Shown here in pieces: positions 12,234-64,000 of a stretch of 64,000 nucleotides of DNA; position 1 is the first letter of the stretch, and each line of letters starts with the position of its first letter. The notes beneath the pieces are model-generated. The model had not been told where the DNA came from and did no database searches. It was given only the letters and a program-made list of their open reading frames with translations. The position numbers were made by a program, and so were the translations under genes. Source of the DNA: Laetmonice hystrix (taxonomy: Eukaryota); NCBI GenBank assembly GCA_965235115.1, contig OZ249436.1, forward strand, positions 27,344,001 through 27,408,000, written 5' to 3'.

Positions 12234-13193
12234 TAGTTAGCGTCGACAGTACAAGCAGTTTGAAACAGAACCCGGGGTACCTTTTCTTTCTCTTACTCAT
12301 TGTGAATAATTTCAAAATATAAATGAAGCTAGAGCGGTATTGGTCCTAGTCTAGATTACTGGAACCGGTTAAAGATACCTGAACCTTAATTGAAGCAATA
12401 GAAAACTGTCTCCGTGCATCCTCTTCTTGGAACCAGTCCATTGTAAAGCTAAAGATAGCAATGCCACACGCCATCTCAAGGAGGGACTGACTGTGCATGG
12501 AAGGAGGGCAGTGGGGGTCGAGGGACAGATTACTAGAGAATGCCAATCATTGACTTTCCGGACACCCCCGGTTTCCGTTGTTGCTGGCCAGGCCCACGAT
12601 GTGATTTCCCTCGCTAACTCGCCTTGTATAGAAAGGAATCTTAGTCCAGGAACAGACCGAGAGAGATACTGGCGTCAGCCGGCGCCGACAGAATGGATGG
12701 GTGGATGACCCGTCAAGTATTCTCACTAGAAACACACATACGTATGCAGGTGGCGAAATGCTGGCTGCTGGGGCCATTGAGGATGCGGAGCCTGAGGGGC
12801 ATACAGAGTTGGAAACACTGTCAGAAACATTCGTGGAACAAATAGTGAAAGGCCCTAAGGGTGGCCTTCCTGCGTGGCCGTCATGGTGAACAGTTTCACC
12901 CGTACAAGAACGCCATCTGAAGGCATGTGGCGGCAGAGCTTGATGTCGCCCCGGAACGATTCTTTTGGTCATTGTTGAGGTTCCATTGTGATGTATCAAA
13001 TTGAGACATACCGGGGGTATACAATGTACGTTTCTTTTTGAATACGAAATTAGAAGGAGTTTTTGTTTGAATATATGGTTTCTGAGTGTTAGGAATATGG
13101 GGGCACGAATGGCTTGTTTAACTCGCATTCTGTTATCGTCAGCAGCAGGATGTCTGGGCTGGGGCTCGCAGGGACAATAGGTTTCACCACCGG

Positions 13194-13444
13194 CAGGGTT
13201 TCCACCAGAGGGTAAAATGGGTAAAATTCCGTACCCTAAACTTTTTCCAGGGTACGGATAAAAATCTCCTGATGATGCCTTGAGCAACTTGAAGGAATCA
13301 AATATAATATCGTACAGTATATGCAGTCTTTATTTGATTAATTCACATATTTGTAACAGCAGTTAGGGTTAGGTTTAGGCTAACCCGAACCCTAACCCTT
13401 CCTCTGGTCCGTACCCTAATTTTTTTTTTCTGGCGGAAACCCTG
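13194..13444. mobile_element. Complete 251-bp MITE, 15-bp TIRs with CAG termini, 5-bp TSD (hAT5-like), telomere-like core
   Basis: Left CAGGGTTTCCACCAG and right CTGGCGGAAACCCTG match 14/15. ACCGG flanks both ends (13189-13193, 13445-13449). The subterminal motif CCGTACCCT(AA) is repeated, and GTTAGGGTTAGG...AACCCTAACCCT lies at 13361-13399. Confidence 0.85.
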
Positions 13445-18378: not shown

Positions 18379-19597
18379 CACAAGGATTTTGCACGTACGA
18401 CCACTGAACTCCTAGAAAACACAGCCTGTTTGTGACAGCAAGCTAGGTGTCGTAAAAGATTAACATCTAGACTCAGATAGTAATCTCAAAATCGGGAAAT
18501 TATGCAGGCACCACGGCCTGTTGTAATACTAGTGAGATGATCATTGCTCACTGATACATTTCCATCATGCACGTTTAAAGGTGCTATTCGTCTCGCACAG
18601 AATGGCATTTCTCCTATCATACATTGTGCACATAGTACTAGAAAAAATTCCTACCGATACCATTGGCCTGATAAACCTTCTATTAGTTCATGTGCAGCAT
18701 TTGAAGCCTATCTCGGTGCGCACCGAGATAGAGCCATTTCCTATGGAGGGGCGTGTCAGGGTCTCCACAGGCCTTCTGAGAGAGCCCCATTTGTGCCGTT
18801 ATCCATGAACAATTTTGATTTCCTTTGTTGTGAATCTATTTCCATGATAGGTGGGATCACATAAACGTCAACAAAATAAAAAATATAAAAATTGAACTTT
18901 TTTTCACGAATAGCACCTTTAAATGAAATAGGAGCTTTAAGAATGAAAGTGCAGCAAAGTGATCATGTTGCGTGGGAGAAGCCTTGTACAAGCCAGGGCA
19001 ACTGCAGATCACCTTCCACATACAGTGAACCTGATTAGGACTGGGCGTAGAGAAGGGGACTGGACACTTGGCTTTGATTAGAAACGTGCAGTAAATGATG
19101 TCGGCCATGATGACGGCTGGCACATTCTGCAGGCTGACAAGTCGCATGGTGCTCGCCTTTCGGATATCTTCTCTGTGTCCGTGAGAGCCGCACCACTGTT
19201 ATAACAGTAGAGTAGACAGTATATTGTAGGTAATATTATTAATCACGCACCTGCCATTTGGTCTTAATTTGTTTGAGGAATTGTACTCCGGTTCTGGCAG
19301 GCATACATGATCAGTTTGTGACTGAATCCCCCAAGGTTGCCCGTTGTCTCGTCTCATTAAAGATGCTATTTACCATCGTGATTAGGAACACGGTAGACTG
19401 TTTCATGACTTCTTCGCTTGTTTATCTTCGCCTTGGTAGATTTACCTTCAGAGTGATGGGCCTGGAGTCTGGAATTGGTTTTAGATGTTAAGTTAGAAAA
19501 AAAAGTTACTATTGCCATGACAAATGGAAACGATTTGACTGACACTTTACCAAGAAATGTAAGCGTGCATTTGGTGTTTCTTTAGTCGACTACCTTT

Positions 19598-19960
19598 TTT
19601 AGTCCCCAACCCATTTGGCAATGGCAAGACAAAACGATCCCAATTTCTTTCAAATTTGTTTTAAGGCAGAAGAATATGGGGAGCAATGTATTATGTCAAT
19701 GTATTCCCAGTTCAGAGCAAATATGACAACATATTTGTTTTTTCTACCACCAAAATAACCCTGTTTTGGCTCATATCTTGAAAATGGTGCAAGATAACGC
19801 AATAGCTCCTATTATTGGCAGACAGGAAGTCATGTATGACATTTCGTATTACGCCATTTTCCATTACCATGAGTGACCTTGAAAGGTCAATCAAGGTCAT
19901 GTATATTGTCAGTAATCTTACGTAAAACATTACACAATGATCAGGGATAGTCTAAGATAG
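19598..19960 (-). mobile_element. Helentron/HINE-like interspersed repeat, copy 1 (internally deleted)
   Basis: Reverse-complement homology to 55150-55988. The ORF track shows a shared translation, YCVILHHF(Q/R)DMSQN..IL.V.KTNM. It begins with TTAGTCCCCAACCC, the reverse complement of the 55.98 kb terminal hairpin end. Confidence 0.7.
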
Positions 19961-20151
19961 TTTGAACATAGTCTGTGGAAGAAGATGTCTCTGTCGAACT
20001 TGAAGTTTTATACACTTATAAACGGCTACACGATAGGTCGGGTGGCGGTGCTTCAGATTCATTGTGTTAGCTGAAGTTCCTACATTCTGGTATGTGTTTC
20101 ATTCTTGTTACCGATATAATTTACTTATACTGATACTTTGTCTACTTGCAG

Positions 20152-20190
20152 GTAAGTACCCTGATTAACTCAACATCGGGTCTGGTACCG
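20152..20190 (+). other. Candidate 39-nt micro-exon / recursive splice (RS) exon
   Basis: Branch-like CTGAT at 20130-20134, then TTTGTCTACTTGCAG acceptor (AG 20150-20151) immediately followed by GTAAGT. A second donor CCG|GTAAGT is at 20191. Length is a multiple of 3 and only phase 0 is open (VSTLINSTSGLVP). Confidence 0.5.
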
Positions 20191-21870
20191 GTAAGTGTTT
20201 ACATGTTGTTTATAGTGACGTTGGTCTCGATGGACTCGGCAGTCTGTTCATCCCACTTTTTGGGGGTTTTTTGGTTTGTTTTTTGGGGTTATGAGGACAT
20301 GAATACTTTAGTGCGACAGCTGCTACACCGACTTAAAAAGTGAACTCATATTTGAGTCCCTTGCAGTAATTACATGTACACTTGTTTCAGCTGTTTCATG
20401 TGTGTTTGGAGGGGAGTTTACATGCCCTGGTACACCACAGGGAAACAGTTTATTTCTGATAACTCGAATCTGGGATAAACAACTCACTTCACTTTGGTTT
20501 CAAGTGAATAAACAAAAACCAAACATGATAAAGGTAAATATTTTTAACTGGTATACGTTTATGCGCTCTGTATAGCAAACAAGAGGTATTTTATCAGGTC
20601 AACAATACTACTAGATATAAGGATAGCAATGATAAATAAATCATCATTGCATTGCCGTGCACTTAATGCTATCCATTGACAAGTGAATGATGTTTGATGG
20701 CTGGGTAAGTTGTCATCTCATTAGGGCCCCAACAACAGCACAAAGATCAGTTCCAAGCCCTGACTACCTTTGCCCTTCTCCGAACCGCCATCAAAAATAT
20801 GGGTCGCGTTGAGACAGAGAGTCGGGCAGAAAACACCAGCAAAGGCTTGGCGCGGTGCCCGAGGTTAACATATACACCACTTAGGCCGGTTGTATACATG
20901 TAATTGCTAGTCTGTCTAGGCTGCATCACATGAATGAATTAGCAATGACTGGAGAGAAAGTTTGCGGCGGTAGGCCAGACATGGGGCGGTGGAAGTGATT
21001 ACAACACGTTATGGCGGCAGCCGAAGCCAGTTGATGATGATGAATATGGTTTATGGCATGTGAATTATGCGTCCAGTAACGAGTGTGAAAAGGACACATG
21101 ATGGCGTCATTAAGCTGTCACATGGTACACTGAGCATGACGGGAAGCCCGCTGAGGGCTGGGGGTGTGGGTGTGGGTTAGGAGTAGGTGAGGGACAACGG
21201 TGGGCGGCCTGAGGTTACTGACAGAACAGGACTCCTGGGGGACGGACATCCAGGCATTGTTGCTCATCACCTGAAATTATTAACATGGCGAGACCTTGTT
21301 TGCAGTATCTAAGATTTCATATAAGACCTGCATAATTTGCGAGGGGCATAGAGAAGCTCTCAGCACTACTCTCAGCTTATAATTTTTAGAAATAGATCAT
21401 TTTAAATTTTTTAATTTTTGCTATGTTTTGTTCACCATATTGAAACATGCCAGTGTGGCCAGAGCACAATCATTTGACCCATAACATGTGGTTAATGTCA
21501 ATGACCTAGTATTTTTACAATGTAGAAGGATGGCCAGGGAGTGAGGTAGAATGGAAGCTGTACTGTAGTATAAACAGTGCTGCGGTATACTGTGCTGTCA
21601 GGGCGGTTATTCTATCAGTTTTAGAGGGCGACGGCAAAACAAATAAATGTTTTCTTTTCTCAAATCGAGCCAGAAAAACGATTCCAGCTTCTCGAAGTTG
21701 AATTCCAATGGTTGCAACCGGGGTTCCCCCTCTCAGGTCGTGTGCTAATGAAGCCTTTGGTAGTTTCCTATGTCCCGAACAATGAACAACAGTATTACTG
21801 TGATAGGCAAACATATGTGTGACCAACACGGAGTATTACCGTATACCTGTAACGAGCTGTGATATCTCAG

Positions 21871-21986
21871 CCAGCCGCCCGGACGTGAAATTCAAAGCGG
21901 AGCTCATTTGCATCCCTATCCCTATCCCTAACTCTAACCCATTTTGAAGAAAATGGGGCAGGGGACAACAAACAAAGGGCGGCTGG
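21871..21986. mobile_element. Small inverted-repeat element with (CCCTAT/CCCTAA)n core
   Basis: CCAGCCGCCC...GGGCGGCTGG perfect 10-bp IR around ATCCCTATCCCTATCCCTAACTCTAACCC; no clear TSD. Confidence 0.4.
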
Positions 21987-24464
21987 ACAGGTGATTGGTT
22001 AAGTTAAATACGCTTTGGTCCCGAGTTTGCGTAGGAATAAAAATTTCGCTGCCCGGACACGCCCCCCCCCCCTCCGCCCGCCGGCGGTCGGTCAGAGGTG
22101 ATATTCACCTCAGTATGAGCTGGGATCAGGATGACCCGAGGGATCAGGTTGAACTGACACCAGATGAACAAAGTCGGTTAAAGTCCCGAGGCTGGCATAA
22201 ATAGGCCTACATACATAACAAACATAACCCACCTACAGTAGACAGTGTAGCTGATTAACTGAGTTCCTTCTACCGTGCTTCCCCGACCAATTATAATGTG
22301 TCACCCGATCAGTTGATTGCTTTCCATAGCATTCAGGGATTTTGCCATAGATAAAGCCGGGATTTAGTGACCTCCACGTGGTAAGTAGTGTGACAAGGTT
22401 AGGGATATTGTACTCTGCGTGAGGTCTTGATTCATAACTGATTCTCTCTCCTCATTATAAACCTGTAAGACCGTGCAGCCAACCGACCACCTGGCTTTGT
22501 ACAAATACACCAATCTGTACCTGAGGCAGGACCGTGGCTATTCACCAGACAATGGTTAGACTGCAGCCCCACCACCGCTGCTGCTGCTGCTGGTTAGCTA
22601 ACCGTCATCGTCAGCCTCCAGAATGGGAAAGTCAAACACAATATTGACTCGCTAGACCCAGTGCAGAGTAAATGGGGCTCGACTGGATGAGGTGTCAGTG
22701 GTTTGGTGTTTAGTCAGGCCGCTTGTGGACAGCTTCCGGAGACTGGCTGTCGAACCACTGTATCAGCGAATCTCATTGGTCGATTAAGGGCGTCGGGAGG
22801 GGGGGGGGGCAAAGTCAGCTTTTCCTGTGTCAGAGCCCAATTTGAGGTTGGCATAGTGATAATGGTTTCCAGTATTAACTATCAATATTGATTCTACTGT
22901 AAAACCACTCTTTTTACTGGGACATTTTACATTTCTCTAGCGCATAATGACACTGACAGCTGACATTGAAAATACCTGCTCTCTACTTTTCACCATAAAT
23001 ATTTCATCCGTGTTCACCCAAATGTTATTTTAAAAATAGGACTCTAGAAGTGAAAATGTTTGTTAGAGCATTAACCATGAATATTTAAGTAGTACCTGAA
23101 ACGATGGATGTTTTTCAGCAAGCCAGTTTGTCAGGCAGGCATTGTGGGTAAAATCAGTTACATTTTCATGTCAATTGTAAATTAGTTCCAATGATCGGGC
23201 ATGTCAAGATGCCAAATATAGGTGCGGTACACGATACACAAGTTAACCATCACTCATTAAGATATTGGCTTCCACTAACTCCCGATACGGATAGAGACCC
23301 CCTTTATTTATGACCATGCAAAAGCTGGCCGTTATCGACCACGAGGGAAGTTTTCCGTGATGGCAGGCTTCTATTCACATAACTCAAGTTTATATCATTA
23401 AAGCCCATCGCTTTAAGACATCGGGCGCATAGGTAAACCAGTTTTATGTGGACCAACAAAATAGAACTGAACAGAGCGATCACAACAGCTGGGTTTTTTC
23501 CTACGCAGACACTGCATGTGTTAGGTGTTAAAGAACAGAAAAAACTCGATATTATGGCCAGTAAATTATTTACAGGCATTATGCGAATTTTCTTTTAATT
23601 TTCTGACGAGCATCATTAAAGCGCATGTTTGCTACTCCCGTAATGGATGCCTGTCGAATGGATAAGTTACATGCTGCTTTTGAAATGAAAATGTTGTTCT
23701 GCAATTTAGAACGAAAATTGAGGGACAATTGATCCTTTCTTCCGCCCGATTTCCAACAGACTACTGCGCAATCCTTAGAAACCGGAGGCGGTGTTTAAAC
23801 TTGTTCACACCCATTTTTTTATCACCGTGTCATGGGTCTGCCAATGTCAATACAAAATTGTGGGAATATTTTGTTGGCAAAATATCAGTGACTAGATGTT
23901 GTATATTGAACCGTAATAAAGTCTGACATCACCAGTGAACTCTAACGTGTCTATACCACGGTCTGGTGACTCAGTTGTACAAGTATATCTTGGTACTTCC
24001 AGGCAGACACGTTCATTAATTTCACTCCTGTCATTTGTTTCTTGTTATCTAGTATCTTCATGCAGTGATCCAAAGGCGGCATTGCTCTTGGCAGATTACT
24101 CGTAATACAAAGCCGTTCTGAGAGGCTCTGACCTATCTAATGATAGCAAAGTCAGAGTATGCCGATATGCCTATGTTTCAGCCCCGTTAACATGCCCACT
24201 TAATTAAACGCAGTGTTTGGTGTCCAGACTCCTCTCATAACTTCTACTTGTCACTCTGCCTGCGTTAATTTCAACATATTCCTATAAAAATCTCACTGTA
24301 ATATCACAGGTACAAGAGTTAGAATAAGCGAACTGACAATGCCTGTTCCAGTGTCCACCATTTTGTTTAGTGTGGTAGATTCGCTGCTCGGAGGCTGCAG
24401 AAGTTTGAACTAGTCGATCACTTCACGCCGGCTAGCACCTCACTCGGAACGACCGAGGCTGCTT

Positions 24465-24718
24465 CTGATTGGCTGTTTCACCAGGATTTGCGTAAAGTCA
24501 TGTCAAGCGGTCGCGCATGAATATGAGCAGTAAATCTAGCTAAACCTAGCCACCCACACACCCCACCCCCAAACATGGCGCCCTCCGTTGTACAGCCGAC
24601 ACATGACGAAGTCAGTCGAGGGTGAGCCGAGTGCTATGACGCGGGAATTAGACAACTGTAGAAGTGATCCGTTGGTAGCCTCTGGCCGTTCATACTCACT
24701 TCCGGTTCAAACATGGCG
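24465..24718 (+). promoter_or_regulatory. Promoter-like motif cluster (CCAAT, two YY1-like, ETS)
   Basis: CTGATTGGCT 24465-24474, AAACATGGCG 24571-24580 and 24709-24718, CACTTCCGGT 24697-24706; CpG-rich. The second YY1-like motif overlaps an ATG at 24713. Confidence 0.4.
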
Positions 24719-25770
24719 TCAGAAAATAGAGTAATGCCAAAGGCTGGCGAAAAACGGTTGGATTACTAGTCAACTCAAAGGATTTACAACTCTGCAAAGG
24801 CCGGAATCTCAAAATATATGTAGTTTAGGGACGGATGGGTGAAATGGTCGAGTAGAAATCATAGAAAAGAATAGCAGTGCACTCGATCCCTCGGAATGGG
24901 ATAGGCATCTCGATCTATGCAAAGCTATGGGCCTAGTTGCTATCCCTAAGGGTATCATGGAAAGAACGTCTTTTCGCATAGGAAATCACACACCGCTTAG
25001 ATATGGTTTTTAATACCAGGAGCATATGACCGTTAATAAACTAGCAAGCGGGACCCGTCTAAACGGAAGAGATCTCGTTTCTAAAGGAGCTACAGACTAC
25101 AGTTGGTTCGGATGTGACTGTCAGCGGTCTTTTCGTGGAAGCTGCCAGACGCCCGGATACGGCCAAGGAAATAATACGAAGGGCGAGTAAATTTTGTAGA
25201 AACTGGCAAACTCGTTCAACGAAAGTTGTTTCCTCCATCATGGGTCCAAACTTCGGGAACACCCTGTATGTGATGACTGTCATGGCGTGTTAGCCATTTC
25301 ACCGAGTCTCAATGACAACAGTCAACAGTATCCATGCCCAGAGCCTTCAAGTAAAGAAACGCCGAAATTGTTTTGCTCCAGTGATTGAAAGGCTTTAATG
25401 ATGACGGAAGGCAAGCTGATAACATGCTGTGCAAAGTTACTGGAGAAGAAGCCAAAACTCCAGGGCAGGAACTGATAAGAACAATTCTCCCAGGGTCTCC
25501 GAACAATACCGGCAAACCTGGCTTCATCACTTGAGACCGGCGTTTTCTTCACGAGCACGACGGGACATCAATCTTCTTCAATCGGTTGCCAACTTATCAC
25601 TTTTTTCAAATTGGGGAAACACCACAATGAACGGACTTTGGGGCTCAAATTACAAAGTTTAGAAGATGTTCTGTTAAAATTTCAGTCAAATTATCAAATC
25701 CGGAAAATAGGGGAGGACGTTAATGACACTGCAGATATCCCACAGTCCTTTCGCTGTGAAAGTAATTGAA
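24713..25770 (+). pseudogene. Decayed intronless coding-like region of unknown family (possibly transposon-derived)
   Basis: Starts MASENRVMPKAGEKRLDY*. Successive protein-like segments are broken by stops and frameshifts: GRVEIIEKNSSALDPSEWDRHLDLCKAMGLVAIPKGIM; TEEISFLKELQTTVGSDVTVSGLFVEAARRP; KLANSFNESCFLHHGSKLREHPVCDDCHG. No family recognised. Confidence 0.35.
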
Positions 25771-28700
25771 AAGAGAAGAACCTTGTAAGGCCTTGGTTAG
25801 AAGCAGCTTCCTGAAGTTATTCATCTTCCTTTTTTTATGTATAACACGGATTTCGTGTAGGCTTCAGTATGGCCTGTACATTAGAGGCGGTGCTTAACCT
25901 TCACAGCATCACGTTGACATATGGGTTGTAGTACGATGATTGATCCGACACATTTATTATAGTTTGTGCCGGATGGACCTGTGAAGGGGAATTGGCCAAC
26001 CCTGCCGGGAGAGACAAACCCAGCCTAGTTCGGCGGCCTTCCATCATTCGGTGAGTGGTCGGCCAACAGAGGCTACTGGCCGTCATTGTGAACTCAGAGA
26101 AGTGTTTGCTGAGAAATCGGTTCATTAACACATAGGAGAGCCAGGAGTTAAGGAAGGTTGGAAGGAGGATGGTTCCTCGCAGTTTCTCCTTAAAATAGAG
26201 ACATGATTGATGGTTTCACCATTTATAAAAAAGGGACATCATGGGGAAATCAGATCTAGAGAAGCAAAGGGCAACAAGGAGGGGAAAACGGGACTTGCCT
26301 CATGCTATGTTACGAGACTGTTGGGGCGGATAGGGTGTAAAACGTATTTACCTACGTTTAGCCTACCCGGTTTATCAACAGTCGCATGCCTGTCACCCTA
26401 GGCTGAATATATTGTATACTCACTTAATTACTGCGGATAACGCCCTTTTCATGTGTGCTATAACCTGGCATGTGTTTTGGTAGTGTTTTTGTAAGCAGCG
26501 CTTGAACTTTTTGTAATACCATTCTCGCATTTAAGCGTGGAACCTGTCTTTAAAAACAGTACCGTCGGTAATAATGATACCAAGACGGGGAAAAACCAAA
26601 CTAGTAGTCCCACCAATATATCACGTTGGTAATTCATGTTGGGCCAATTCAGGCACATGCGTCGGTACATTTCAGAAAAGAAAGAAAACTCGAAGAGAAG
26701 GAGAAAATGATCTGTTTCTTCGAAGAGTACACGTTTATATCAAAGTTTTAACAACCAGTTCTCGACGAAGAAATGAAATAGGTAAAACAAGAATAGTTCT
26801 AATGATGCTTCTGAGGATTCTTGCATACTGGGAATGGTCATTTCATCGTGTCTTTTTAAAACCGGCTTCTTGTACCGTGTGGATCTAGTGATTAGCACAA
26901 GGTCCATATCTTGCCTGAAAATAAATGCTTAGTCTGCAGTATGTATCAGTGCTACAGCTACTATACGACACATCATAAAGTAGATCCAGAAGCAGAATGT
27001 TCTTTGGACGCTTGCGTACATATATGTAATGTGCCAAAGTCGATATTTTCTCCATTTGTCGGAACACTGAGGTTGAATCATTCATTGTGTACTTGATAAA
27101 TGGCGAATACAGTGGGATATATGGAAGTGAGTACGGATGAGGGAACGATGTAATAGTGAACAATGGTAACGTTCACTTCGTTATTTCTTGGAATTCTCAA
27201 CAGCTCAAGTCGAGTGATAAAAACAGCTACCGTCAACATCGCACTTCAGGTCTTTCGACGGTGAGGAAAACACGGCCTAAACGAGATTAGATCGTGCCTA
27301 ATTGCATGAATATGATTTATCTCTCAAAGGACAATTAATAAAACAGCCAGCCACATTTCACAGCAGAAAAGTTGTCATTGTTTTCGGTGGAAGCAAGAAG
27401 CGACGCTTTGCGTGGGCCAGCCCTGGAGGTAGACAAAGCGAAGAGGATGATGCATGAGCACGCTCACGGTGCGTGCCGACTGACGGACGGCTGCCATAAC
27501 AAAGACTCCACACCATGGCCACATGTGGTCCGGCAGCAGGACCTCCTTCACAATGCGAACTGTCAAAGAAAAAGAGCAAGACTCAAAACAGTCTTTCTTC
27601 ATATTTTCAAAAAATGATTTTTGTATCATGTATTTTCTATCATTAAGGGACGGTGGGGAAATGCATAAACAGACTTAACAGGACGTATTCAGATTATTTT
27701 TATGGTGCGTCGACTAAGCATTGTTTTGATCTTTTTCTGTACATAATATTATGTGATATCCAGGTTTAGTGGATACGGGTACCAGCTGAGCATAGGATTT
27801 GTGTTGAGTGTTACATCATGGAAATAAGTGTAGCAAGGAATTGTTTTTATTCAAACATTACACATGTGGGGCATGGTGAATGTGTACCAATACCAGATGT
27901 TGACTAAATTGAATGCCGTACTTGTGGCAGGTTGTAGGTGGTATTTCTTCCTTTCCTTTTCTTTTTTTTTGGTCTTTATTTCCTTTCCTTTCTTCCCCTT
28001 TCATTTCCTTTCTTTTCCTTTTCCTCTTAATGGAAGTAATGCATGCAGTGCTTGGTTGAGGGCCATTTAGGCTGTTGGTTGCCAATGATAACGCAAGGGA
28101 TGAATTTCTAGTGCACAGAGACTGGAAAACAGGTTATAAACTGCTGCCAATGTTGGACGTTCTCATTCAATTTCTTTTTTTCTCTTTTTTTTCCAGGCAA
28201 TATTGGGTATCGTAGATAAGGAATTTCGAATTTATCTTTGTTTCATACGCAATAAAGGGTTATATGAAATTGTACATGCCACAATGATTGAAAGGGAAAT
28301 TTTATTTCCATGCAGCGATTATAGAAATTGTCGTTGGAATTGGCAGTTGACTATACATATTATCTTGGGAGAGTGCCCAGTCCTAAGTGACAACTAACAG
28401 AAGTCATATTTCCCTATAGTAAGACTATTGCTTTTCATAAAGCGTACACGAATTCACAGTGGGGCATGATAGGGCTCAATGCATAAAGATTGATTGATTG
28501 AGCCTGTACAAGGGACCCAGGAAAACAGCAAAACAGATGAGACAATCAAATTGATTGAAGCCGTTCACTCACGGCCGTAGAGGTGATGAACAAATCGGTG
28601 CACTGAGGTACGCACAATGTCAACTAAATCCTGACTGTAAAGACTTTGTTTGTATTGTCAGACCAGAAACATGGCCTTCCTAGACCACGTTATTAGAAAC

Positions 28701-32260: not shown

Positions 32261-32359
32261 CAGCAGAATTTCTAGTCTCGATACACCAGACCCTTTTCCC
32301 CGCTAGAGGCCGCTAGTCCTCCTATCCTGGTCGTCGAGTCTACAGAATTGTCATCTGCC

Positions 32360-33180
32360 AAAATGGCTTGGCAGCCATCTTGTGTGTCAACGCATTTCGA
32401 GCAATAAGTCAGACAAAACGGTCCCGATTTCTGTCAAATTTGGGGCAAGGTAGGAGCATCTGAGAGGCAATGTTTATGCCAATGTATTCTTAGTTCAGAG
32501 CAGATTTAGTGACATGGCGGCCATATTTGCTTTTTGACCCCCAAAAAACACTGTTTTGGTTCATATCTCGAAAATAGTGCAAGATAACACAATACCGTAG
32601 TTTATATGAAGTTTCGTTTGGCGAAATTTTCCATGACCTTCTGTGACCTTGAAAGGTCAATCAGAGTCATGCATATTTATCTGGTTTTCTTTCAAACTTG
32701 GTGAGAAGAGAAGGCATATATGAGCATATTTTGTGTTCAGATTAAATATAAGTGAACAAGGTAACGATACTTTCTATAAACTAAGATTAAGATCGTTATA
32801 TTAGGTTTCATTTGTCACTATTTCACTTTACATTCAGTGACCTTGTGAGGTCAGTTAAGGTCAGGGACGTTTTTGACGATTCATATCTAGAAAACACTCC
32901 AAGATAACTACTAACTACAACTGATTCCTAAAGACAAAGTTTCTTTGTGACTCAAGTATGTGACGGATGTTCTCACATGGACTGTACCTCAAAAATACAA
33001 AATACAATATATTTCCTATACCCCCAGCGCCGTGAAGATGGCCTTAGAAAGGTCATGCATATTCATCTGGTTTTCTTTCAAACTTGGTGAGAAGAGAAGC
33101 CAGGTGAGAGGCAACAAGCGTGCCAATTTATTTTGTGTTCAGATTAAATATAAGTGAAGAAGTTAACCATACTTTCTATA
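32360..33180 (-). mobile_element. Helentron/HINE-like interspersed repeat, copy 2, with internal ~130-bp duplication
   Basis: Homologous to 19690-19910 (same strand) and to the reverse complement of 55620-55832. Segments 32651-32778 and 33047-33180 are related copies. Confidence 0.7.
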
Positions 33181-41235: not shown

Positions 41236-41465
41236 ATGGGAGAAGCGGGGGTTGGTAAGTAAGGGACGATACGTTTACTGTGAACATGAATGGGAGAAGC
41301 GGGGGTTGGTAAGTAAGGGACGATACGTTTACTGTGAACATGAAAGGTGTGAGATGAGGAGTAAGGTTAAAGATGGTGTGATCAAACTCAGGCACTGCCC
41401 ACACAAGTCTGATCAAACTCGGGCACTGCCGACACAAGTCTGATCAAACTCAGGCACTACCGACA
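41236..41465. repeat. Adjacent short tandem duplications: 54 bp x2 and 31 bp x~3
   Basis: ATGGGAGAAGCGGGGG...GAACATGA at 41236 and 41290; TGATCAAACTCRGGCACTGCCSACACAAGTC from 41379. Confidence 0.9.
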
Positions 41466-43252: not shown

Positions 43253-46200
43253 CTTACGTCAAGGGGAACGTGATGCTATAGTCTACTCTACTCTCCCCAG
43301 TGGTGGGTCTGGACTTACGTCAAGGGGAACGTAAGGCTATAATCTACTGTACTGTCCTCAGTGGTGGGTCTGTAGGTTCGCTCTCAAGACTTACGTCAAG
43401 GAGAACGTAAGGCTACAATCTACTGTACTGTCCTCAGTGGTGGCTCTGTAGGTTCGCTCCCAAGACTTACGTCAAGGGGAACGTAAGGTTATAGTCTACT
43501 GTACTGTCCTCAGTGGTGGGTCTGTAGGTTCGCTCTCAAGACTTACGTCAAGGGGAACGTGAGGTTATAGTCTACTGTACTCTCCTCAGTGGTGGGTCTG
43601 TAGGTTCGCTCTCAAGACTTACGTCAAGGGGAATGTAAGGCTATAATCTACTGTACTGTCCTCAGTGGTGGGTCTGTAGGTTCGCTCTCAAGACTTACGT
43701 CAAGGGGAACGTAAGGCTATAATCTACTGTACTGTCCTCAGTGGTGGGTCTGTAGGTTCGCTCTCAAGACTTACGTCAAGGGGAATGTAAGGCTATAATC
43801 TACTGTACTCTCCTCAGTGGTGGGTCTGTAGGTTCGCTCTCAAGACTTACGTCAAGGGGAATGTAAGGCTATAATCTACTGTACTGTCCTCAGTGGTGGG
43901 TCTGTAGGTTCGCTCACAAGACTTACGTCAAGGGGAACGTAAGGTTATAGTCTACTCACTCTCCTCAGTGGTGGGTCTGTAGGTTCGCTCCCAAGACTTA
44001 CGTCAAGGGAACGTAAGGCTATAATCTACTGTACTGTCCTCAGTGGTGGGTCTGTAGGTTCGCTCTCAAGACTTACGTCAAGGGAACGTAAGGCTATAAT
44101 CTACTGTACTGTCCTCAGTGGTGGGTCTGTAGGTTCGCTCTCAAGAATTACGTCAAGGGAACGTAAGGCTATAATCTACTGTACTGTCCTCAGTTGTGGG
44201 TCTGTAGGTTCGCTCACAAGACTTACGTCAAGGGGAACGTAAGGCTACAATCTACTGTACTGTCCTCAGTGGTGGGTCTGTAGGTTCGCTCTCAAGACTT
44301 ACGTCAAGGGGAACGTAAAGCTATAATCTACTGTACTGTCCTCAGTGGTGGGTCTGTAGGTTCGCTCACAAGACTTACGTCAAGGGGAATGTAAGGCTAT
44401 AATCTACTGTACTGTCCTCAGTGGTGGGTCTGTAGGTTCGCTCACAAGACTTACGTCAAGGGGAACGTAAGGTTATAGTCTACTCACTGTCCTCAGTGGT
44501 GGGTCTGTAGGTTCGCTCTCAAGACTTACGTCAAGGGGAACGTAAGGCTATAATCTACTGTACTGTCCTCAGTGGTGGGTCTGTAGGTTCGCTCTCAAGA
44601 CTTACGTCAAGGGGAACGTAAGGCTATAATCTACTGTACTGTCCTCAGTGGTGGGTCTGTAGGTCGCTCACAAGACTTACGTCAAGGGGAACGTAAGGCT
44701 ATAATCTACTGTACTGTCCTCAGTGGTGGGTCTGTAGGTTCGATCACAAGACTTACGTCAAGGGGAACGTAAGGCTATAATCTACTGTACTGTCCTCAGT
44801 GGTGGGTCTGTAGGTTCGCTCACAAGACTTACGTCAAGGGGAACGTAAGGTTATAGTCTACTCACTCTCCTCAGTGGTGGGTCTGTAGGTTCGCTCACAA
44901 GACTTACGTCAAGGGGAACGTAAGGCTATAGTCTACTGTACTCTCCTCAGTGGTGGGTCTGTAGGTTCGCTCACAAGACTTACGTCAAGGGGAACGTAAG
45001 GCTATAATCTACTGTACTGTCCTCAGTGGTGGGTCTGTAGGTTCGCTCTCAAGAATTACGTCAAGGGAACGTAAGGCTATAATCTACTGTACTCTCCTCA
45101 GTGGTGGGTCTGTAGGTTCGCTCACAAGACTTACGTCAAGGGGAACGTAAGGCTATAATCTACTGTACTGTCCTCAGTGGTGGGTCTGTAGGTTCGCTCA
45201 CAAGACTTACGTCAAGGGGAACGTAAGGCTATAATCTACTGTACTGTCCTCAGTGGTGGGTCTGTAGGTTCGCTCACAAGACTTACGTCAAGGAGAACGT
45301 AAGGCTATAATCTACTGTACTGTCCTCAGTGGTGGGTCTGTAGGTTCGCTCACAAGACTTACGTCAAGGGGAACGTAAGGCTATAATCTACTGTACTCTC
45401 CTCAGTGGTGGGTCTGTAGGTTCGCTCTCAAGACTTACGTCAAGGGGAACGTAAGGCTATAATCTACTATACTGTCCTCAGTGGTGGGTCTGTAGGTTCG
45501 CTCACAAGACTTACGTCAAGGGGAACGTAAGGCTATAATCTACTGTACTGTCCTCAGTGGTGGGTCTGTAGGTTCGCTCTCAAGACTTACGTCAAGGGGA
45601 ACGTAAGGCTATAATCTACTGTACTGTCCTCAGTGGTGGGTCTGTAGGTTCGCTCACAAGACTTACGTCAAGGAGAACGTAAGGCTATAATCTACTGTAC
45701 TGTCCTCAGTGGTGGGTCTGTAGGTTCGCTCACAAGACTTACGTCAAGGGGAACGTAAGGCTATAATCTACTGTACTGTCCTCAGTGGTGGGTCTGTAGG
45801 TTCGCTCACAAGACTTACGTCAAGGGGAACGTAAGGCTATAATCTACTGTACTCTCCTCAGTGGTGGGACTGTAGGTTCGCTCACAAGACTTACGTCAAG
45901 GGGAACGTAAGGCTACAATCTACTGTACTGTCCTCAGTGGTGGGTCTGTAGGTTCGCTCACAAGACTTACGTCAAGGGGAACGTAAGGTTATAGTCTACT
46001 CACTCTCCTCAGTGGTGGGACTGTAGGTTCGCTCACAAGACTTACGTCAAGGGAACGTAAGGCTACAATCTACTGTACTGTCCTCAGTGGTGGGACTGTA
46101 GGTTCGCTCACAAGACTTACGTCAAGGGGAACGTAAGGCTACAATCTACTGTACTGTCCTCAGTGGTGGGTCTGTAGGTTCGCTCACAAGACTTACGTCA

Positions 46201-46330
46201 AGGGGAACGTAAGGTTATAGTCTACTCACTCTCCTCAGTGGTGGGACTGTAGGTTCGCTCACAAGACTTACGTCGATGGGAACTCAAGGGTTTAATCCAC
46301 TCTACTCTCCCCTTTGTTGGGTCTGTAGTT
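43253..46330. repeat. Satellite-like tandem array, about 40 units of 76 bp
   Basis: Consensus GACTTACGTCAAGGGGAACGTAAGGCTATAATCTACTGTACTGTCCTCAGTGGTGGGTCTGTAGGTTCGCTCWCAA; period measured from 43312 to 43388. Terminal units are degenerate. Confidence 0.98.
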
Positions 46331-47034
46331 GGCTCGGTCTACAAACTACAAGATCGATAGGGACTTGCATTCTCAGAATCATTGGTGAAGCGGTTTTTTT
46401 TTCTCGTTTCATAGGAGAATCCAGATGAAATGTACATGCAGTATGAAGGATAATGGTGGAATTTGACGTATTACATTACTACCGAACTTCTATGTAAATG
46501 TCAAGTCTATGTGGAAATTCACTTCGACCTGCTTGTTGGTTTAATCCTAGCTTTTCCAGTCTCAGAAAGCATGGACTTGAATACCGACTTATTTTGACGT
46601 TTCCTGAAAACGCAAAATATCGTATTGGTCTGGTCTGGAAAGCCTGTGCGTGGTTTCCGCCCCGTCGAGGAGACCGTTGGAATTCCCGGGACAAGTCGAA
46701 AGTCCTGGTTATCCGTGGCGTGCTGATCCGAGACAAGAGCCTGAAAATCCTGGGATTAGTGAGGATTTTCACGCTTTCATACTGAGCCAGGATAGATTTT
46801 TACCATTGAAATAGTATGGCATCTGTTTGCATTATGCGTCCGCGTTTGTGGACAGAAGAATCTGTACATTTTTATTGGTATCCTAAAATAAAAATAAATT
46901 ACCGGCATGCCTCTTCACCTGAGTTCACTTGCTACGCTCATTCACTCTGACCTTAGACTGACCCCCCCCCCCCACCACTCAATCAACATTGCTGTCATCA
47001 ATATTCACCAAGCGATCTGACGTTGACGGTAAAG

Positions 47035-55149: not shown

Positions 55150-55988
55150 TGAAGGTACAAGGCGTCCCTGATCATTGTGTAAAGTTTCATGCAAGATTAT
55201 CTGTCGTTATCTTTGAACTGTTTGGAGTAGTGGCCATTGAAAATATGCATGACCTTGATTGACCTTCAAGGTCACTCAAGTTCAAACTAAAGTTCATATA
55301 TGACTTCCTATCTCTCAATAATAGTAACTATTGCGTTATCTTTTATCAAATTTGAAAGAAATCGGGATCGTTTTGTCCAAGTTATTGCTCGAAATGTCCT
55401 TGCATCCTGGATGGCTACCAAGTGGCCATTTTGAACAGTATCAAAAATTTGTTTGACCCGCATCATTCTTAGGCTGTCCCTGATTATTGTATCATGTTTT
55501 ATGCAAGATTATATCGTTATCTTCAACTGGTTTGAAGGTACATACCATAAAAAATGTGCATGACCTTGATGGACCTGTCAAGGTCATATATGATTCCCTA
55601 TCTGTCACTAATAGTAACTATTGTGTCATATTGCACCATTTTCGAGATATGAGCCAAAACAGTTTAATTTTGGGGGTAAAAAAAACAAATATGGCCGCCT
55701 ATAATACATTGGCATTGCCCCTCATATGCTTCTTCATTGCACCAAATTTGGAAAAAAATGGTATCGTTTTGCTTGAGTTATTGCGAGAAATGTGCGTACA
55801 TGTATATCCAAGCTGGCTGCCAAGCGGCCATTTTGTTATCAAAAATCTATTTGACGTGCATCATCCTCAGACCGTACCTGATCATTGTGTAAAGTTGCAT
55901 ACATTTTGACCCATACACTTTTGAGAAATCGCTCTCTCCGGACGGAGGGCGACTTAGAAACCCCCGCCCCTTGGGGTTGGGGGCTAAC
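55150..55988 (+). mobile_element. Helentron/HINE-like interspersed repeat, copy 3, with 3' hairpin end
   Basis: Internal repeated modules (CCTGATCATTGTGTAAAGTT; TGACCTTGA...AAGGTCA), a remnant GGACGGA microsatellite at ~55939, then the hairpin CCCCCGCCCC-TT-GGGGTTGGGGG before an A-rich flank. This organisation is described for Helentron-associated non-autonomous elements. Confidence 0.65.
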
Positions 55989-56829: not shown

Positions 56830-57643
56830 GAAAAAAGGCACTGGAAAACATGGCACAGGAAAAAGTGGCACAAGGAAATTATATGGCACAAGAAATAATG
56901 GCGCCAAGTACAGATAGGAAAAACGTTTTTTTCCAAACATGACAAATTATAACAGAAACTGTGGAATGAGTCGTAGTATCAGTAAGTTGGTATCAGGAGA
57001 GAAACCCCTAACCTAACCCTAGCCCAGAAACTTTCTATAAGGGGCTGCCGCCGACAGCTGTGAAGTAACACATCCTCCTCCAGGCACCCAGCATTATGAG
57101 GAAGACTCAGAGTGAGAGACCTTCAGAACTGCAATTTAACTTTTTACATCACATTGCAAAAATACCTGAACGCGTTTGTGACTTAATTCTGACGCAACCT
57201 TGATTGTATCTTGGGTTTATTCTTGAGTTAAATCCCCGAGTACTTACCATATAATATGGGCTGATTTTCCTACATCCGTCCGACTAGGATGTGTCTTATT
57301 GGAATAAGCCTTATTGGGATTCGTCTAGGTCTAACTGGGATTTGTCTTATTGGGGTGAAACCGTGTTGGGGCCTCTGCCAGAGGGTGAAGTTTGTTTTTT
57401 TTTTGTTTATTTTCCAGGTGAACGACCCTCTCCCCTATCTCTATCTATCTCTCTCTATCTCTCTCTCAACCTCGCGTCATAATACAGTATGCTGCTCCGT
57501 AATTTGAGCATTGTGATTACCCGATGTGTCTTTTTAGTCTACACTTTGTGTCATTTTCCCTGTGCCATTTGTTCCATGTGCCATTTGTTCCTGTGCCATT
57601 TTTCCTGTGCCATTTTTTCCGGTGCCATTTTTTCAGGTTACCG
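56830..57643. mobile_element. TIR element with arrays of ~15-bp AAAAATGGCACAGG subterminal repeats in inverted orientation
   Basis: (GGCAC..GAAAA)n at 56831-56905 versus (TTTTCCTGTGCCA)n at 57550-57632, ending in TCAGGTTACCG. Internal CCCTAACCTAACCCTAG at ~57005. The left terminus is eroded. Confidence 0.65.
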
Positions 57644-60364: not shown

Positions 60365-61774
60365 TTTACAATGTAATCGACCGTTTGACCTTGCCACCAA
60401 ACCAACACGTTACATGTCCTGGAAGTCCGGACCACATGTCCTTTGATAGCTATCTGAATAATTTGGTCTCCAAGCATGACTCCATTCTTTGTATCTTTTG
60501 TTCCTCATCCATTGACACGACACTTAAATTTGTCGTGCGAGATTCCGAGCAGACCGGCCGACGGCAGGATTTAATTATTGTGGGCATGCTTTATGTTTGA
60601 GAATGAAGTCATTGTTTTGCTCGATGACCCTGGTATCCAAGTACATGGCCTGTGATATATCTGTACGATTACGATAGACAAGGCGTCACTGAGCCCACAC
60701 CTGGATACATATTGAATAAGTAAATTCAGACCAGACCTGTAGACCAACATTCATCATAATATACTAACATTGTGGTTGACAAGGCCAGGGGAGGGTATGG
60801 CCAGCCGTTATAGGCTGGGGGAGGCCTCAGGCCAACCAGTCCCCAGGCTAGGACCTACTATGTACTGTTGCTATGGTGACAGCTGGTTAGCAACCACACC
60901 TGCTTAACAACGCACAGATCATGTAGGAAGAACGCATACAACCTTCTTGTTCTTGCTATATATTTGTTTCAAGTTTCGGGTGTGTGCGTCTTTGTTCCGT
61001 GCATTCATGTCGCCATCATCCAGTGCATGGTTCCGTACCACCGACTTATTCGGACAGAGAATACAATAGAAACGCTCTCCCATGTCAAAATATTTCATTC
61101 TACCGTGTTGTAGCTTTGGACTTTATCCTGAATTTTTCCCAGTTATAGAGTTTAATGAAAAAGGATTTTTTTTGTAGAAAGAGTTTACTCGCAATAACTG
61201 TACATGCTGGTGGGATACGTTTTTACTCGTGCATTTGTATTTATTTCTAAGCGGATAGCATTTTTCTCCCCATCTCACCAGTCCTCTCAACTATAATATC
61301 CTGAGGACGAAAATATTTATATCAGTACAAAATCAAGTATTTATGATGATAGCACACACCATGCTTGAGACCTTTAATATTTTCCTGCCTGAAATAATTC
61401 ATGTACATGGTGACCTTATATTTATTCCACTAAAAACTGTCCCTTAGCCCTCGGTGATTTCAAGTGTAAATGGTTGACCTTTAGTTGAGTCAAATGCCGA
61501 AGTAGTGTTAGTGAATTTTGGTGTAATTGTTGTGTCCGCCCTTCTGTGACTTGTTGAGTTATGTAGTATCGTGCTCTCGGCTGGTACGGAGTCTCCGTAC
61601 ATCAGCATTGCAGAATATGATAAACCCAAAAAAAAACCTGAAACATTGGAGCGTTCTTGTTCCCATAGAACACCGCTGGTTTCATGGAGTCCACAGCTTC
61701 AGTTAATAATTGCGTTTAATGGTACTTAATGGCCTTCATATTGGTTGAATGGTGATAGATAACATGGTAGGTAT

Positions 61775-62120
61775 ATTGGCCGGAGGCGAGAGGAACGGTG
61801 CGCCTGGCTGACTGCCGCTCCTTGTACCTGCCCCCACCTGAGCCGACTCGGCGGTGGGCCACGCTGGGGGAGGCCTGGCGGGCGGGCCTGGGCGGAGCTC
61901 GGGATGTCCGGCTGGGTATGCGGGTGGGAGGGAGGGTCCGGGCCGGGCCGGGCCGGGCCGGGCCGGGCCGGGCCGGGCCGGGCCGGGCCAGACGGTGACG
62001 GCCATACACAGACAGTGGCCGCCCCGCCGTGTACGCCGCGAGCCCCTTTAAGTGGAGTGTCGGCGGCCGGGACTGTGCAGCTGCAGGCGGAGCACGAACT
62101 GGCCGCCTTCCAACACGCCG
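61775..62120. other. CpG-island-like GC-rich block containing (GGCCG)n
   Basis: Abrupt GC/CpG-rich segment with about ten GGCCG pentamers at 61938-61988, flanked by AT-rich sequence. Confidence 0.7.
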
Positions 62121-64000
62121 TATACATTGCGTGTACATACATATATGTGGTTGTAATTTAACCGCCACTCCACGCGCTTCACAAACTATATATTACCACG
62201 GGCAGAACAGGAGGACAAAGAGGAAGGGATTATATGTACTCGCATGCAATAAGTCCCATGGAAATTACTCCTTCTAAAATAGCCATGGCGGCGGTATTTT
62301 ATGATTGCGATGGCTGGGTACTCCGTCTGAAGTGGGCCCGAGGTGTTGGTAATGGCACTGAAGGGTCGTCATTACCTGGTGTCATATTTACAAAGCGAAC
62401 CACTTACCTTCTTTTTATGAGGTCATATTGAAGTGGTATTGCATAAAAGAAAGTGATGGTATAGCTCCTTTTTTACCGAATACCTTGTTTGGTATACAAT
62501 GGAGTATACCATGGAGTATACATTAGTTGATAAAGCGGTAGTATAAATTATGTAAGTGAGAGGTATTTTTATTGCAAATGCTGTCGGTATTAAGTCACCA
62601 GAAACCACGCAGAGAGCAGATTAAAGAAAATATTTTTTTCTTTAGCCAGCGAGTAGGTCAGGGCATGTCTTGGAGTTAAGTCTTTGAAACTTAACCAGTA
62701 ATAGCAACGGTTGCTACATAGCCTCATGTAGTTTTGGAGACTGTGAGGAAATGTGTATATCATAAAAAAGAATGAGGACCTTTCACACAAATATATTCAC
62801 ATTGAAACCTTATAATATTACAGAAGTATTAAATTACATTCAGACCCGGACCGACATTGGGCACATCTTCTCTTCAGTGTTAAACAAATTTGAAATGTCA
62901 GGGTGCATTGTAAAGACTAGGAAAACCTATTGGTAATACAAAAATGAATGTTACTCATTGTTCACAAAGACCATCTGCAGATGGGGCTCTGTGCTATAGC
63001 ATATTATTTGAAGGCCGTTGAGAGTTCCACTCCAGTGTGAGGAGTTAAGAAATGTTGACGTTGACACATTCCACACCACCTGACACCATCCACACTGAAA
63101 ACACTGCATCCCGTCTACGTTATATTTTATACTCGCATTTCTTCTATATGAGTTCGAGTTCGGGGGGAGGGGGGATCCTAAGAAAATGAACAATGAAATC
63201 TGCAATTCCGATTTTAATCCATTTCCACATTGTATGTGTCCCTCGGAGATTACGCAGAAATCAGATTTCATACCCCAGAGTGCATCCCTGTCATAATTTA
63301 CTTCAATTTAAGTCGTCAATTAAGTTGTACATTCCACGGTATAAACTACATAGCTACAACAGCTGCAAGAAGTCCCGTTGCGTACAGATGTAAGCCATCG
63401 TACTTGGAGAAGGAATCGTTGGCAACAATGCATGATAAGGTAGCCGATACGGTATTAGCATTCAACAGATAGACGGCTATCTTATTCCGTTTGTGTTTAG
63501 AATTCCCTACAGTAATGTTTACATAAGACAGCTATGGTTCTACTGCCAGCCACGTTTTCTTTCCTCCGTAAACCGTTGCCAAGTATTTTCTTTTTCAGGT
63601 TCCCACTTGTCATTATGGACCGAGAAATGAGTAGCTCAGCTGGTTTAATAGTATTCCAACCAATCTACATTGCATCCATAATTCAAGTCGGTAGTTGGAA
63701 GTGGTTCCTATATGTAAATTGTACTGGAAGGATGTTTCAAGTGAAACAGCCAAGAGGTAATTTCTATCATTGCATCTGGAAGTATTTGCTTGGCACGAAC
63801 TGTCTCGGGCTGTAACTGACAATGAGGTCACTGCTGTGGATTTTGCATCATTTTGTAAACTTGAACATTTCCATGTTGAAAGGGAATTAAGCGTGGCGCT
63901 CCGTGGCAGGCTGTTGTGCTGCGACCAGGGTTCGACCTTAAAACCAGTGACACGATGGTGATCATACATTGTCCTTGGGTGTGTATGTGTGTGTAGGCAA

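What the first reader, a model, noticed from the sequence alone, without database searches (positions are those of the whole stretch)
20128..20196. Recursive-splice-type junction (CAG|GTAAGT) opening a 39-nt frame-preserving micro-exon
Seen: a branch-like CTGAT about 18 nt upstream of a pyrimidine-rich CAG acceptor that is followed with zero spacing by a perfect donor GTAAGT, and a second perfect donor 39 nt later. Known: this arrangement defines recursive splice sites and RS-exons in long introns of Drosophila (e.g. Ubx) and vertebrate genes. Inferred: the window lies in a very long + strand intron removed stepwise, with optional inclusion of VSTLINSTSGLVP in phase 0, or a poison exon in the other phases. 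Recursive splicing is little documented outside flies and vertebrates.
Basis: partly seen in the sequence, partly recalled or inferred. Interest (0 to 1): 0.7.

Follow-up and report, generated by a model that had tools for sequence, protein, structure and literature searches.

The report
Lone candidate splicing ratchet point
A single spot in a long gene-poor stretch of an invertebrate genome has the full sequence layout of the stepping stones that fruit flies use to cut very long introns out in pieces; whether it is used has not been tested, and the mechanism itself is already known.

Summary
The motif is present as described: a branch-like TACTGAT (20128-20134), an acceptor TTGCAG ending at 20151, GTAAGT at 20152, and a second GTAAGT 39 nt later. 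The core alone is chance-level (8 seen, 8.4 expected). The combination is rarer: 0.005-0.01 per simulated window with fly-type criteria, 0-1 in 1,972 windows with thresholds fitted to the site. It holds the window's best donor, has the -5/-6 TT of fly ratchet points, and lies on one contig per run, outside high-copy repeats. The best reading (0.55) is a ratchet point whose 39-nt cryptic exon defines the acceptor and is then usually skipped. Not shown: transcription, strand, host gene, intron length, splicing or conservation. No second convincing site lies in the 64 kb. The 13-residue peptide has no support. Rivals are chance (0.22), an included microexon (0.13), and a gene 5' end or a 62-nt intron from GTATGT at 20090 (0.10). 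The scan noted similar untested candidates in other animal genomes. This is at most a new member of a known kind; it would matter mainly if the animal is a spiralian, as unchecked earlier notes suggest.

The parts
20090..20095 (+). Upstream donor-like hexamer (CTG|GTATGT); with the acceptor it would bound a 62-nt intron, 20090-20151
   Evidence: 7 of 9 donor consensus positions. A similar hexamer lies 45-120 nt upstream of 253 of 3,261 and 212 of 3,042 simulated core sites, so it is not significant alone.
20077..20149 (+). AG-free, T-rich stretch before the acceptor (73 nt)
   Evidence: Previous AG at 20075; 1.1% of simulated AGGT sites have so long a zone; 20090-20151 is 47% T.
20128..20134 (+). 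Candidate branch site TACTGAT, branch A at 20133 (position -19); weaker YTNAY candidates put an A at -25 and -29
   Evidence: Sequence. CTRAY occurs upstream of 9% of simulated AGGT sites. The consensus used is recalled.
20133..20148 (+). Moderate pyrimidine tract with TT at -6/-5 (20146-20147)
   Evidence: 11 of 16 pyrimidines; TT checked; 196 of 197 fly ratchet points have it (10.1101/006163).
20149..20151 (+). 3' splice acceptor CAG
   Evidence: score within the top 1.2% of + strand AGs under hand-set weights.
20152..20159 (+). Ratchet-type donor GTAAGTAC directly after the acceptor
   Evidence: Highest of the 11 donors scoring 6.5 or more on both strands (8.9); only YAG|GTAAGT in the window.
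20152..20190 (+). 39-nt candidate cryptic (RS) exon, open in phase 0 only
   Evidence: Top of the 8 open-frame exon candidates (11.3 against 10.9 and 10.2). No Pfam match for its frame.
20191..20196 (+). Second donor (CCG|GTAAGT) closing the candidate exon
   Evidence: Score 6.7; 0.5% of simulated AGGT sites have so strong a donor 25-100 nt downstream.
20257..20290 (+). T/G-rich low-complexity run about 70-100 nt downstream of the second donor; possibly an intronic enhancer, possibly nothing
   Evidence: Sequence only; role is inference; skipped as a repeat.

Best explanation
A ratchet point (recursive splice site) in a very long + strand intron whose flanking exons lie outside the window. The 39-nt segment is first recognised as an exon, between the acceptor at 20151 and the donor at 20191. 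A distant upstream exon is spliced to 20152, which rebuilds a strong donor (upstream exon end plus GTAAGTAC). That donor usually outcompetes the one at 20191, so the 39 nt leave with the next intron piece and nothing is added to the mRNA. Shown: the signals and their rarity in combination. Inferred: transcription, strand, intron length and every splicing step.
For: All ratchet-point features coincide at one site: TT at -5/-6 (feature taken from 10.1101/006163), fused AG|GTAAGT, a branch-like site, a 73-nt AG-free zone, and a donor 39 nt downstream, close to the ~50 nt of fly cryptic exons (PMC8605326). Chance rate per window is 0.0045-0.0095 for the strict fly-type pattern, 1 in 120 for the summed three-site score, and 0 and 1 in 1,972 for thresholds fitted to the site. 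It ranks first of 429 AGGT sites by three-site score. The first donor is stronger than the second (9 against 8 of 9), the order that gives skipping in flies. No Pfam match at cut-off among 138 + and 143 - strand frames fits a long non-coding stretch. One contig per run covers the site, unlike the flanking repeats, so it is not a high-copy repeat motif. Base skew is the same on both sides (0.069 and 0.063), with no step at the site.
Against: The core motif occurs at chance level. Loose fly-type criteria give 0.02-0.08 such sites per window by chance, and the site was picked out after the fact from many windows. The acceptor is only moderate, and strong acceptors show no + strand excess (45 against 45). 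No second convincing ratchet point lies in 64 kb; the next candidate, 57417, has a weak donor and no downstream donor. The median fly segment is 16 kb, though the range reaches 64 kb. Strand is not fixed: the G-over-C skew is the vertebrate sign and fly introns are C-over-G (PMC5786239), T-over-A is weak (z 2.4), and AATAAA is not depleted on + (46 against 45). The best branch A (-19) lies just outside the -36 to -21 range of most mapped fly cases. Allelic differences are not significantly depleted at the site (P 0.27 for 20078-20200).
Confidence: 0.55

Rival explanations
1. Chance: an unused coincidence of splice-like words in non-coding DNA, noticed because many windows were read.
For: Core motif 8 seen against 8.36 expected. 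Loose patterns arise in 2-8% of simulated windows and the strict one in about 0.5-1%; a chromosome of over 24 Mb holds several hundred windows, so a few strict chance sites are expected on it. No strand excess of acceptors or strong donors. No fold signal (z from -1.41 to +1.14 for 6 stretches). No significant drop in allelic differences.
Against: Branch site, AG-free zone and second donor all fall at workable distances; that full set arose 0 and 1 times in 1,972 windows (fitted thresholds). The -5/-6 TT, taken from the fly paper after the site was chosen, is met.
Confidence: 0.22
2. An expressed alternative microexon of 39 nt (13 residues in phase 0, or an untranslated or poison exon) that begins with GTAAGT. 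It is included through the donor at 20191, perhaps in neurons by the eMIC/Srrm234 route, with the internal donor suppressed or used as a switch, as at Ubx mI/mII.
For: Length divisible by three and open in one phase. Best exon candidate in the window. Long AG exclusion zone and a strong branch sequence are marks of eMIC exons in flies (PMC8797185 passage).
Against: The donor at the exon's first base is stronger than the one at its end. The only TGC near the acceptor overlaps the acceptor itself, and the UCUC-rich tract is absent. The lead over the next exon candidates is small (11.3 against 10.9). No homologue or host gene was found for the peptide's frame.
Confidence: 0.13
3. The 5' end of a + strand gene or non-coding transcript. 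TATAAA at 20017 is the promoter, and CAG|GTAAGT is simply the donor of a T-rich first exon with alternative donors at 20090 and 20191. Or 20090-20151 is a 62-nt intron followed by a 39-nt second exon.
For: Three donor-like sites within 101 nt, the middle one the best donor in the window. TATAAA at 20017 and an initiator-like TCAGATT at 20053. 20090-20151 has donor, branch site and acceptor and no internal AG.
Against: TATAAA occurs 26 and 22 times on the two strands, and the initiator-like pattern about 100 times per strand. CpG observed/expected is 0.65 here against 0.70 for the window. Skew does not change at the site. An upstream donor hexamer is expected at 7-8% of chance sites. The joined short-intron model has stops in all three frames over 19960-20190.
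Confidence: 0.1

Closest known systems
Drosophila intronic ratchet points with cryptic RS-exons (kuz, Bx, Ubx, luna; 10.1101/006163, whole text read; PMC8605326, parts 1-2 of 6 read)
   Same: Fused acceptor and donor, TT at -5/-6, short downstream exon closed by a second donor, first donor the stronger, apparently long non-coding surroundings.
   Different: Fly sites are proven by junction reads, saw-tooth coverage, lariats and conservation; none is shown here. Fly cryptic exons are generally out of frame, this one is 39 nt. The pyrimidine tract is moderate and the best branch A is at -19. The organism is not a fly.
Expressed RS-exons: Ubx microexons mI and mII, and mammalian RS-exons held in by the exon junction complex (as described)
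   Same: Short exon, length divisible by three, starting with a consensus donor.
   Different: No expression, host gene or protein context is known here; the Ubx exons are 51 nt and begin GTAAGA.
eMIC/SRRM3/4-dependent neural microexons (PMC8797185 and 10.1101/2024.09.17.613571, passages read)
   Same: Short exon, long AG exclusion zone, good branch sequence.
   Different: No separate UGC between branch site and AG, no UCUC tract; a donor at the exon start is not among the features in the passages read.

Membership tests
Recursive splice site (ratchet point) | Acceptor AG directly followed by a consensus donor | tested here: met
   CAG|GTAAGTAC at 20149-20159.
Recursive splice site (ratchet point) | TT at -5 and -6 (196 of 197 fly sites) | tested here: met
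   T20146 and T20147; feature.
Recursive splice site (ratchet point) | Prominent pyrimidine tract and a branch point mostly at -36 to -21 | tested here: inconclusive
   Tract 11 of 16. Best branch A at -19, weaker ones at -25 and -29; fly range.
Recursive splice site (ratchet point) | Short cryptic exon closed by a downstream donor weaker than the ratchet donor | tested here: met
   Donor at +39, 8 of 9 against 9 of 9. The true strength of the rebuilt donor depends on an unknown upstream exon.
Recursive splice site (ratchet point) | Lies on the sense strand of a long intron (over about 10 kb) | tested here: inconclusive
   No Pfam match at cut-off in 281 of 408 frames scanned. Skew is uniform but its sign is ambiguous. 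No genome held.
Recursive splice site (ratchet point) | Junction reads into the site, saw-tooth coverage, lariats | not testable with these tools
   See Tried and rejected.
Recursive splice site (ratchet point) | Motif conserved in related species | not testable with these tools
   No animal genomes are searchable. The metagenome scans (0 hits; 11 hits without flank similarity) are not a fair test.
Expressed RS-exon or coding microexon | Frame-preserving length with an open phase | tested here: met
   39 nt, phase 0 open, phases 1 and 2 closed; expected 1 in 3 by length alone.
Expressed RS-exon or coding microexon | Inclusion in mature mRNA | not testable with these tools
   See Tried and rejected.
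eMIC-dependent neural microexon | Long AG exclusion zone and strong branch sequence | tested here: met
   73 nt; TACTGAT.
eMIC-dependent neural microexon | UGC between branch point and AG (74-79% of targets) and UCUC-rich tract | tested here: not met
   The only TGC overlaps the acceptor CAG, and there is no TCTC in 20135-20148; features.
High-copy repeat or transposon fragment | Many similar copies in the genome | tested here: not met
   At 80% likeness one contig per run covers the site (depth 54, 53, 30) against tens of contigs and depths of 25,000-700,000 in flanking repeats. No second copy in the window. Older, more diverged copies are not excluded.

The most novel reading that the evidence does not exclude
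A working ratchet point in a spiralian (probably annelid) long intron, with the same cryptic-exon design and -5/-6 TT as in flies. With flies and vertebrates it would place recursive splicing in all three main bilaterian branches. In the boldest form the in-frame 39-nt exon is a switch that can add 13 residues, as at Ubx (that part alone about 0.08).
Probability: 0.4. Interest if true: 0.6.

Novelty: new member of a known kind. Interest (0 to 1): 0.33.

Why it matters
The papers read document recursive splicing in flies, mouse, human and lungfish. Searches pairing the term with annelid (1 listing) and with mollus- (2 listings) returned only papers on other subjects, judged from title and abstract; most subscription journals are not in the library. 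A proven spiralian site would argue that ratchet points are an old bilaterian way of handling long introns. It would also make a cheap genome-wide test possible: sense against antisense counts of the pattern in long introns. One unproven site adds little on its own.

Tried and rejected
RNA evidence: no RNA holder listed for 18400-28300; 3 runs of one sample and one study held the stretch. This says nothing for or against expression. Laying those 3 contig sets on 18500-22500 showed joints only in the repeat at 19647-19928 among the 15 rows shown (43 not shown), as expected of DNA-like runs; they may be the window's own source. Host gene: no whole genome is held. Pfam on 138 of 191 + and 143 of 217 - strand frames of 55 aa or more gave 2 and 6 weak hits, all under cut-off; I sent the 150 longest per strand less 12 and 7 simple-repeat frames, left out frames inside the satellite, and did not scan shorter ones. 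The longest frame (12550-13329, - strand, 260 aa) gave no Atlas hit at 0.9 and one hit among 1.84 billion proteins, a repeat protein at 22% identity whose five weak stretches are summed; rejected as chance. Conservation: two metagenome scans gave 0 hits and 11 hits whose flanks match at 8-21 of 60 and 12-20 of 62 bases, i.e. chance. Earlier-finding look-ups near the site, by sequence and by relatives gave nothing. Structured RNA: no Rfam match in the window; the hairpin in the 39 nt is ordinary (z -0.31). Old 101-nt tandem duplication, suggested by a 21-nt likeness of the donors at 20090 and 20191: rejected, 408 and 606 of 2,000 shuffles and 55 of 488 neighbouring blocks score as well. Purifying selection from alleles: 16 differences in 19878-21448, none in 20013-20227, P 0.10 for that after-the-fact gap and 0.27 for 20078-20200; not significant. 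The bacterial promoter scan does not apply. The first composite count used a threshold the site itself missed (12 of 16) and was redone.

Full report
Observation. TACTGAT lies at 20128-20134 with its A at position -19. The acceptor TTGCAG ends at 20151, GTAAGTAC starts at 20152, and CCG|GTAAGT follows at 20191. The 39 nt between are open in phase 0 (VSTLINSTSGLVP) and closed in the other two phases. Three features went unreported: TT at -6/-5, no AG for 73 nt before the acceptor, and a donor-like CTG|GTATGT at 20090.

Is it more than chance? The core is not: YAGGTRAG occurs 8 times against 8.36 expected, and YYYNYAGGTRAGT once against 0.29. I scored all 429 AGGT sites outside tandem repeats with hand-set, approximate splice weights from recall. 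The site ranks second by acceptor plus donor (9.7 against 9.9 at 57417) and first once a downstream donor is added; 1 of 120 simulated windows reached that three-part score. With criteria modelled on fly sites, TTNYAG|GTRAG with a downstream donor arises in 5-8% of simulated windows. The strict form TTNYAG|GTAAGT with a downstream donor arose 15 and 19 times in 2,001 windows, and 9 and 9 times with a loose pyrimidine filter. With thresholds fitted to the site, plus branch site and AG-free zone, the count was 0 and 1 in 1,972 windows. A fair figure is about 1 window in 100-200. That is notable for one window, but a chromosome of over 24 Mb should hold a few such chance sites.

Surroundings. The window looks like animal non-coding DNA. 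No Rfam family matched, and no Pfam family reached its cut-off in 281 of 408 frames; short exons could have been missed. The longest frame gave only a chance-like hit. An exon scan found 12 candidates on + and 7 on -, 8 of them with an open frame; the 39-nt segment is the best, by a small margin, and its first donor is the best in the window. G exceeds C along the whole + strand (skew 0.065, z 10; T over A z 2.4) and equally on both sides of the site. This fits one long transcription unit but does not fix the strand, because the coding strand of introns is G-rich in vertebrates and C-rich in flies (PMC5786239, passages). AATAAA and strong acceptors show no strand bias. Earlier notes on this genome call the animal probably an annelid; I did not test that.

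Copy number and alleles. Three contig sets of one sample, possibly the window's own source, hold the region. Laid at 80% likeness, one contig per run covers the site at depth 54, 53 and 30, whereas the repeats at 18500-19035 and 19572-19973 draw tens of contigs and depths of 25,000-700,000. The site is therefore not part of a recent high-copy repeat, though it starts about 130 nt behind one. One run's contig matches the window; another differs at 16 places in 19878-21448, all listed, none in 20013-20227. I read this as the second allele, also intact; 4 gap letters in that contig were not located in the rows shown. The lack of differences is not significant (P 0.10-0.27).

Mechanism. The best reading is a ratchet point with a cryptic exon. 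By the fly model (PMC8605326, parts 1-2 of 6), the short exon is recognised between the acceptor and the downstream donor; the upstream exon is spliced to it; the rebuilt donor at its first base then outcompetes the downstream donor, and the exon is lost with the next intron piece. The site has each part. It has the -5/-6 TT of 196 of 197 fly sites (10.1101/006163, whole text), and its first donor is the stronger (9 against 8 of 9 consensus positions). Against it: the tract is moderate, the best branch A is slightly closer than most mapped fly cases, and no second convincing site lies in 64 kb, although fly segments range from 2.6 to 64 kb. The signals are shown; transcription, strand, intron length and all splicing steps are inferred. 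I put this at 0.55.

Rivals. Chance (0.22) rests on the selection argument above. An included microexon (0.13) fits the length and the long AG-free zone typical of eMIC exons (PMC8797185, passages), but the separate UGC and UCUC tract are missing (10.1101/2024.09.17.613571, passages). A gene 5' end with three alternative donors, or a 62-nt intron from 20090 (0.10), fits TATAAA at 20017, but that word is common, CpG is not raised, skew does not step, and an upstream donor is expected at 7-8% of chance sites. An old tandem duplication and a structured RNA were tested and rejected.

Comparison and novelty. The site would work like fly ratchet points; membership is not established, since the defining RNA evidence and conservation could not be tested. 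A 2026 review lists flies, mice and humans (PMC13149111, passages and section 5.2), and a preprint adds lungfish (10.1101/2024.12.11.627982, part 1 of 3). Fly sites are twice as conserved as control AGGT motifs (PMC6110457, passages). Searches pairing recursive splicing with annelid or mollus- listed 1 and 2 papers on other subjects; broader searches listed none on the point among their top 25, 20 and 15. These were seen as listings only, and most subscription journals are not covered. I opened no supplements; site lists in them could include other animals. The scan has noted similar untested candidates in other genomes, among them a sea urchin; those are unchecked notes, not support.

Verdict. 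A real and well-formed candidate of a known mechanism, single and unproven. Interest 0.33; about 0.6 if confirmed in a spiralian.

Noticed in passing
window 43253-46335: 76-bp satellite of about 40 copies at 95% identity; each + strand unit holds a 31-nt piece running from GTAAGG to CTCAG that looks like a miniature intron.
   Followed up: no
window 57391-57425 (+): Strongest AG|GT acceptor in the window (score 10.4, ending 57417), but followed by a weak donor GTGAAC and no downstream donor.
   Followed up: partly
window 28175-28196 (+): Strongest acceptor-like tract of the window (score 13.4) with no partner donor among the listed exon candidates.
   Followed up: partly
window 19625-19957, 32359-32778, 55160-55900: Dispersed repeat family with TGACCTTGA-type words, several diverged copies in the window and very many in the genome; one copy ends about 130 nt before the donor at 20090.
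   Followed up: partly
window 18500-19035: Second, even higher-copy repeat (summed depth 28,000-700,000), not identified.
   Followed up: no
window 12550-13329 (-): 260-codon stop-free frame, the longest in the window; no Pfam, Atlas or credible protein hit.
   Followed up: yes
window 41236-41344: Exact 54-nt tandem duplicate, each copy holding GGTAAGTAAG.
   Followed up: no
window 61760-62140: GC-rich stretch with ten CCGGG repeats (61938-61989) in otherwise AT-rich DNA.
   Followed up: no
whole window: Uniform excess of G over C on the + strand in all eight 8-kb blocks (z 2.3-6.1); cause, transcription or replication, unknown.
   Followed up: partly
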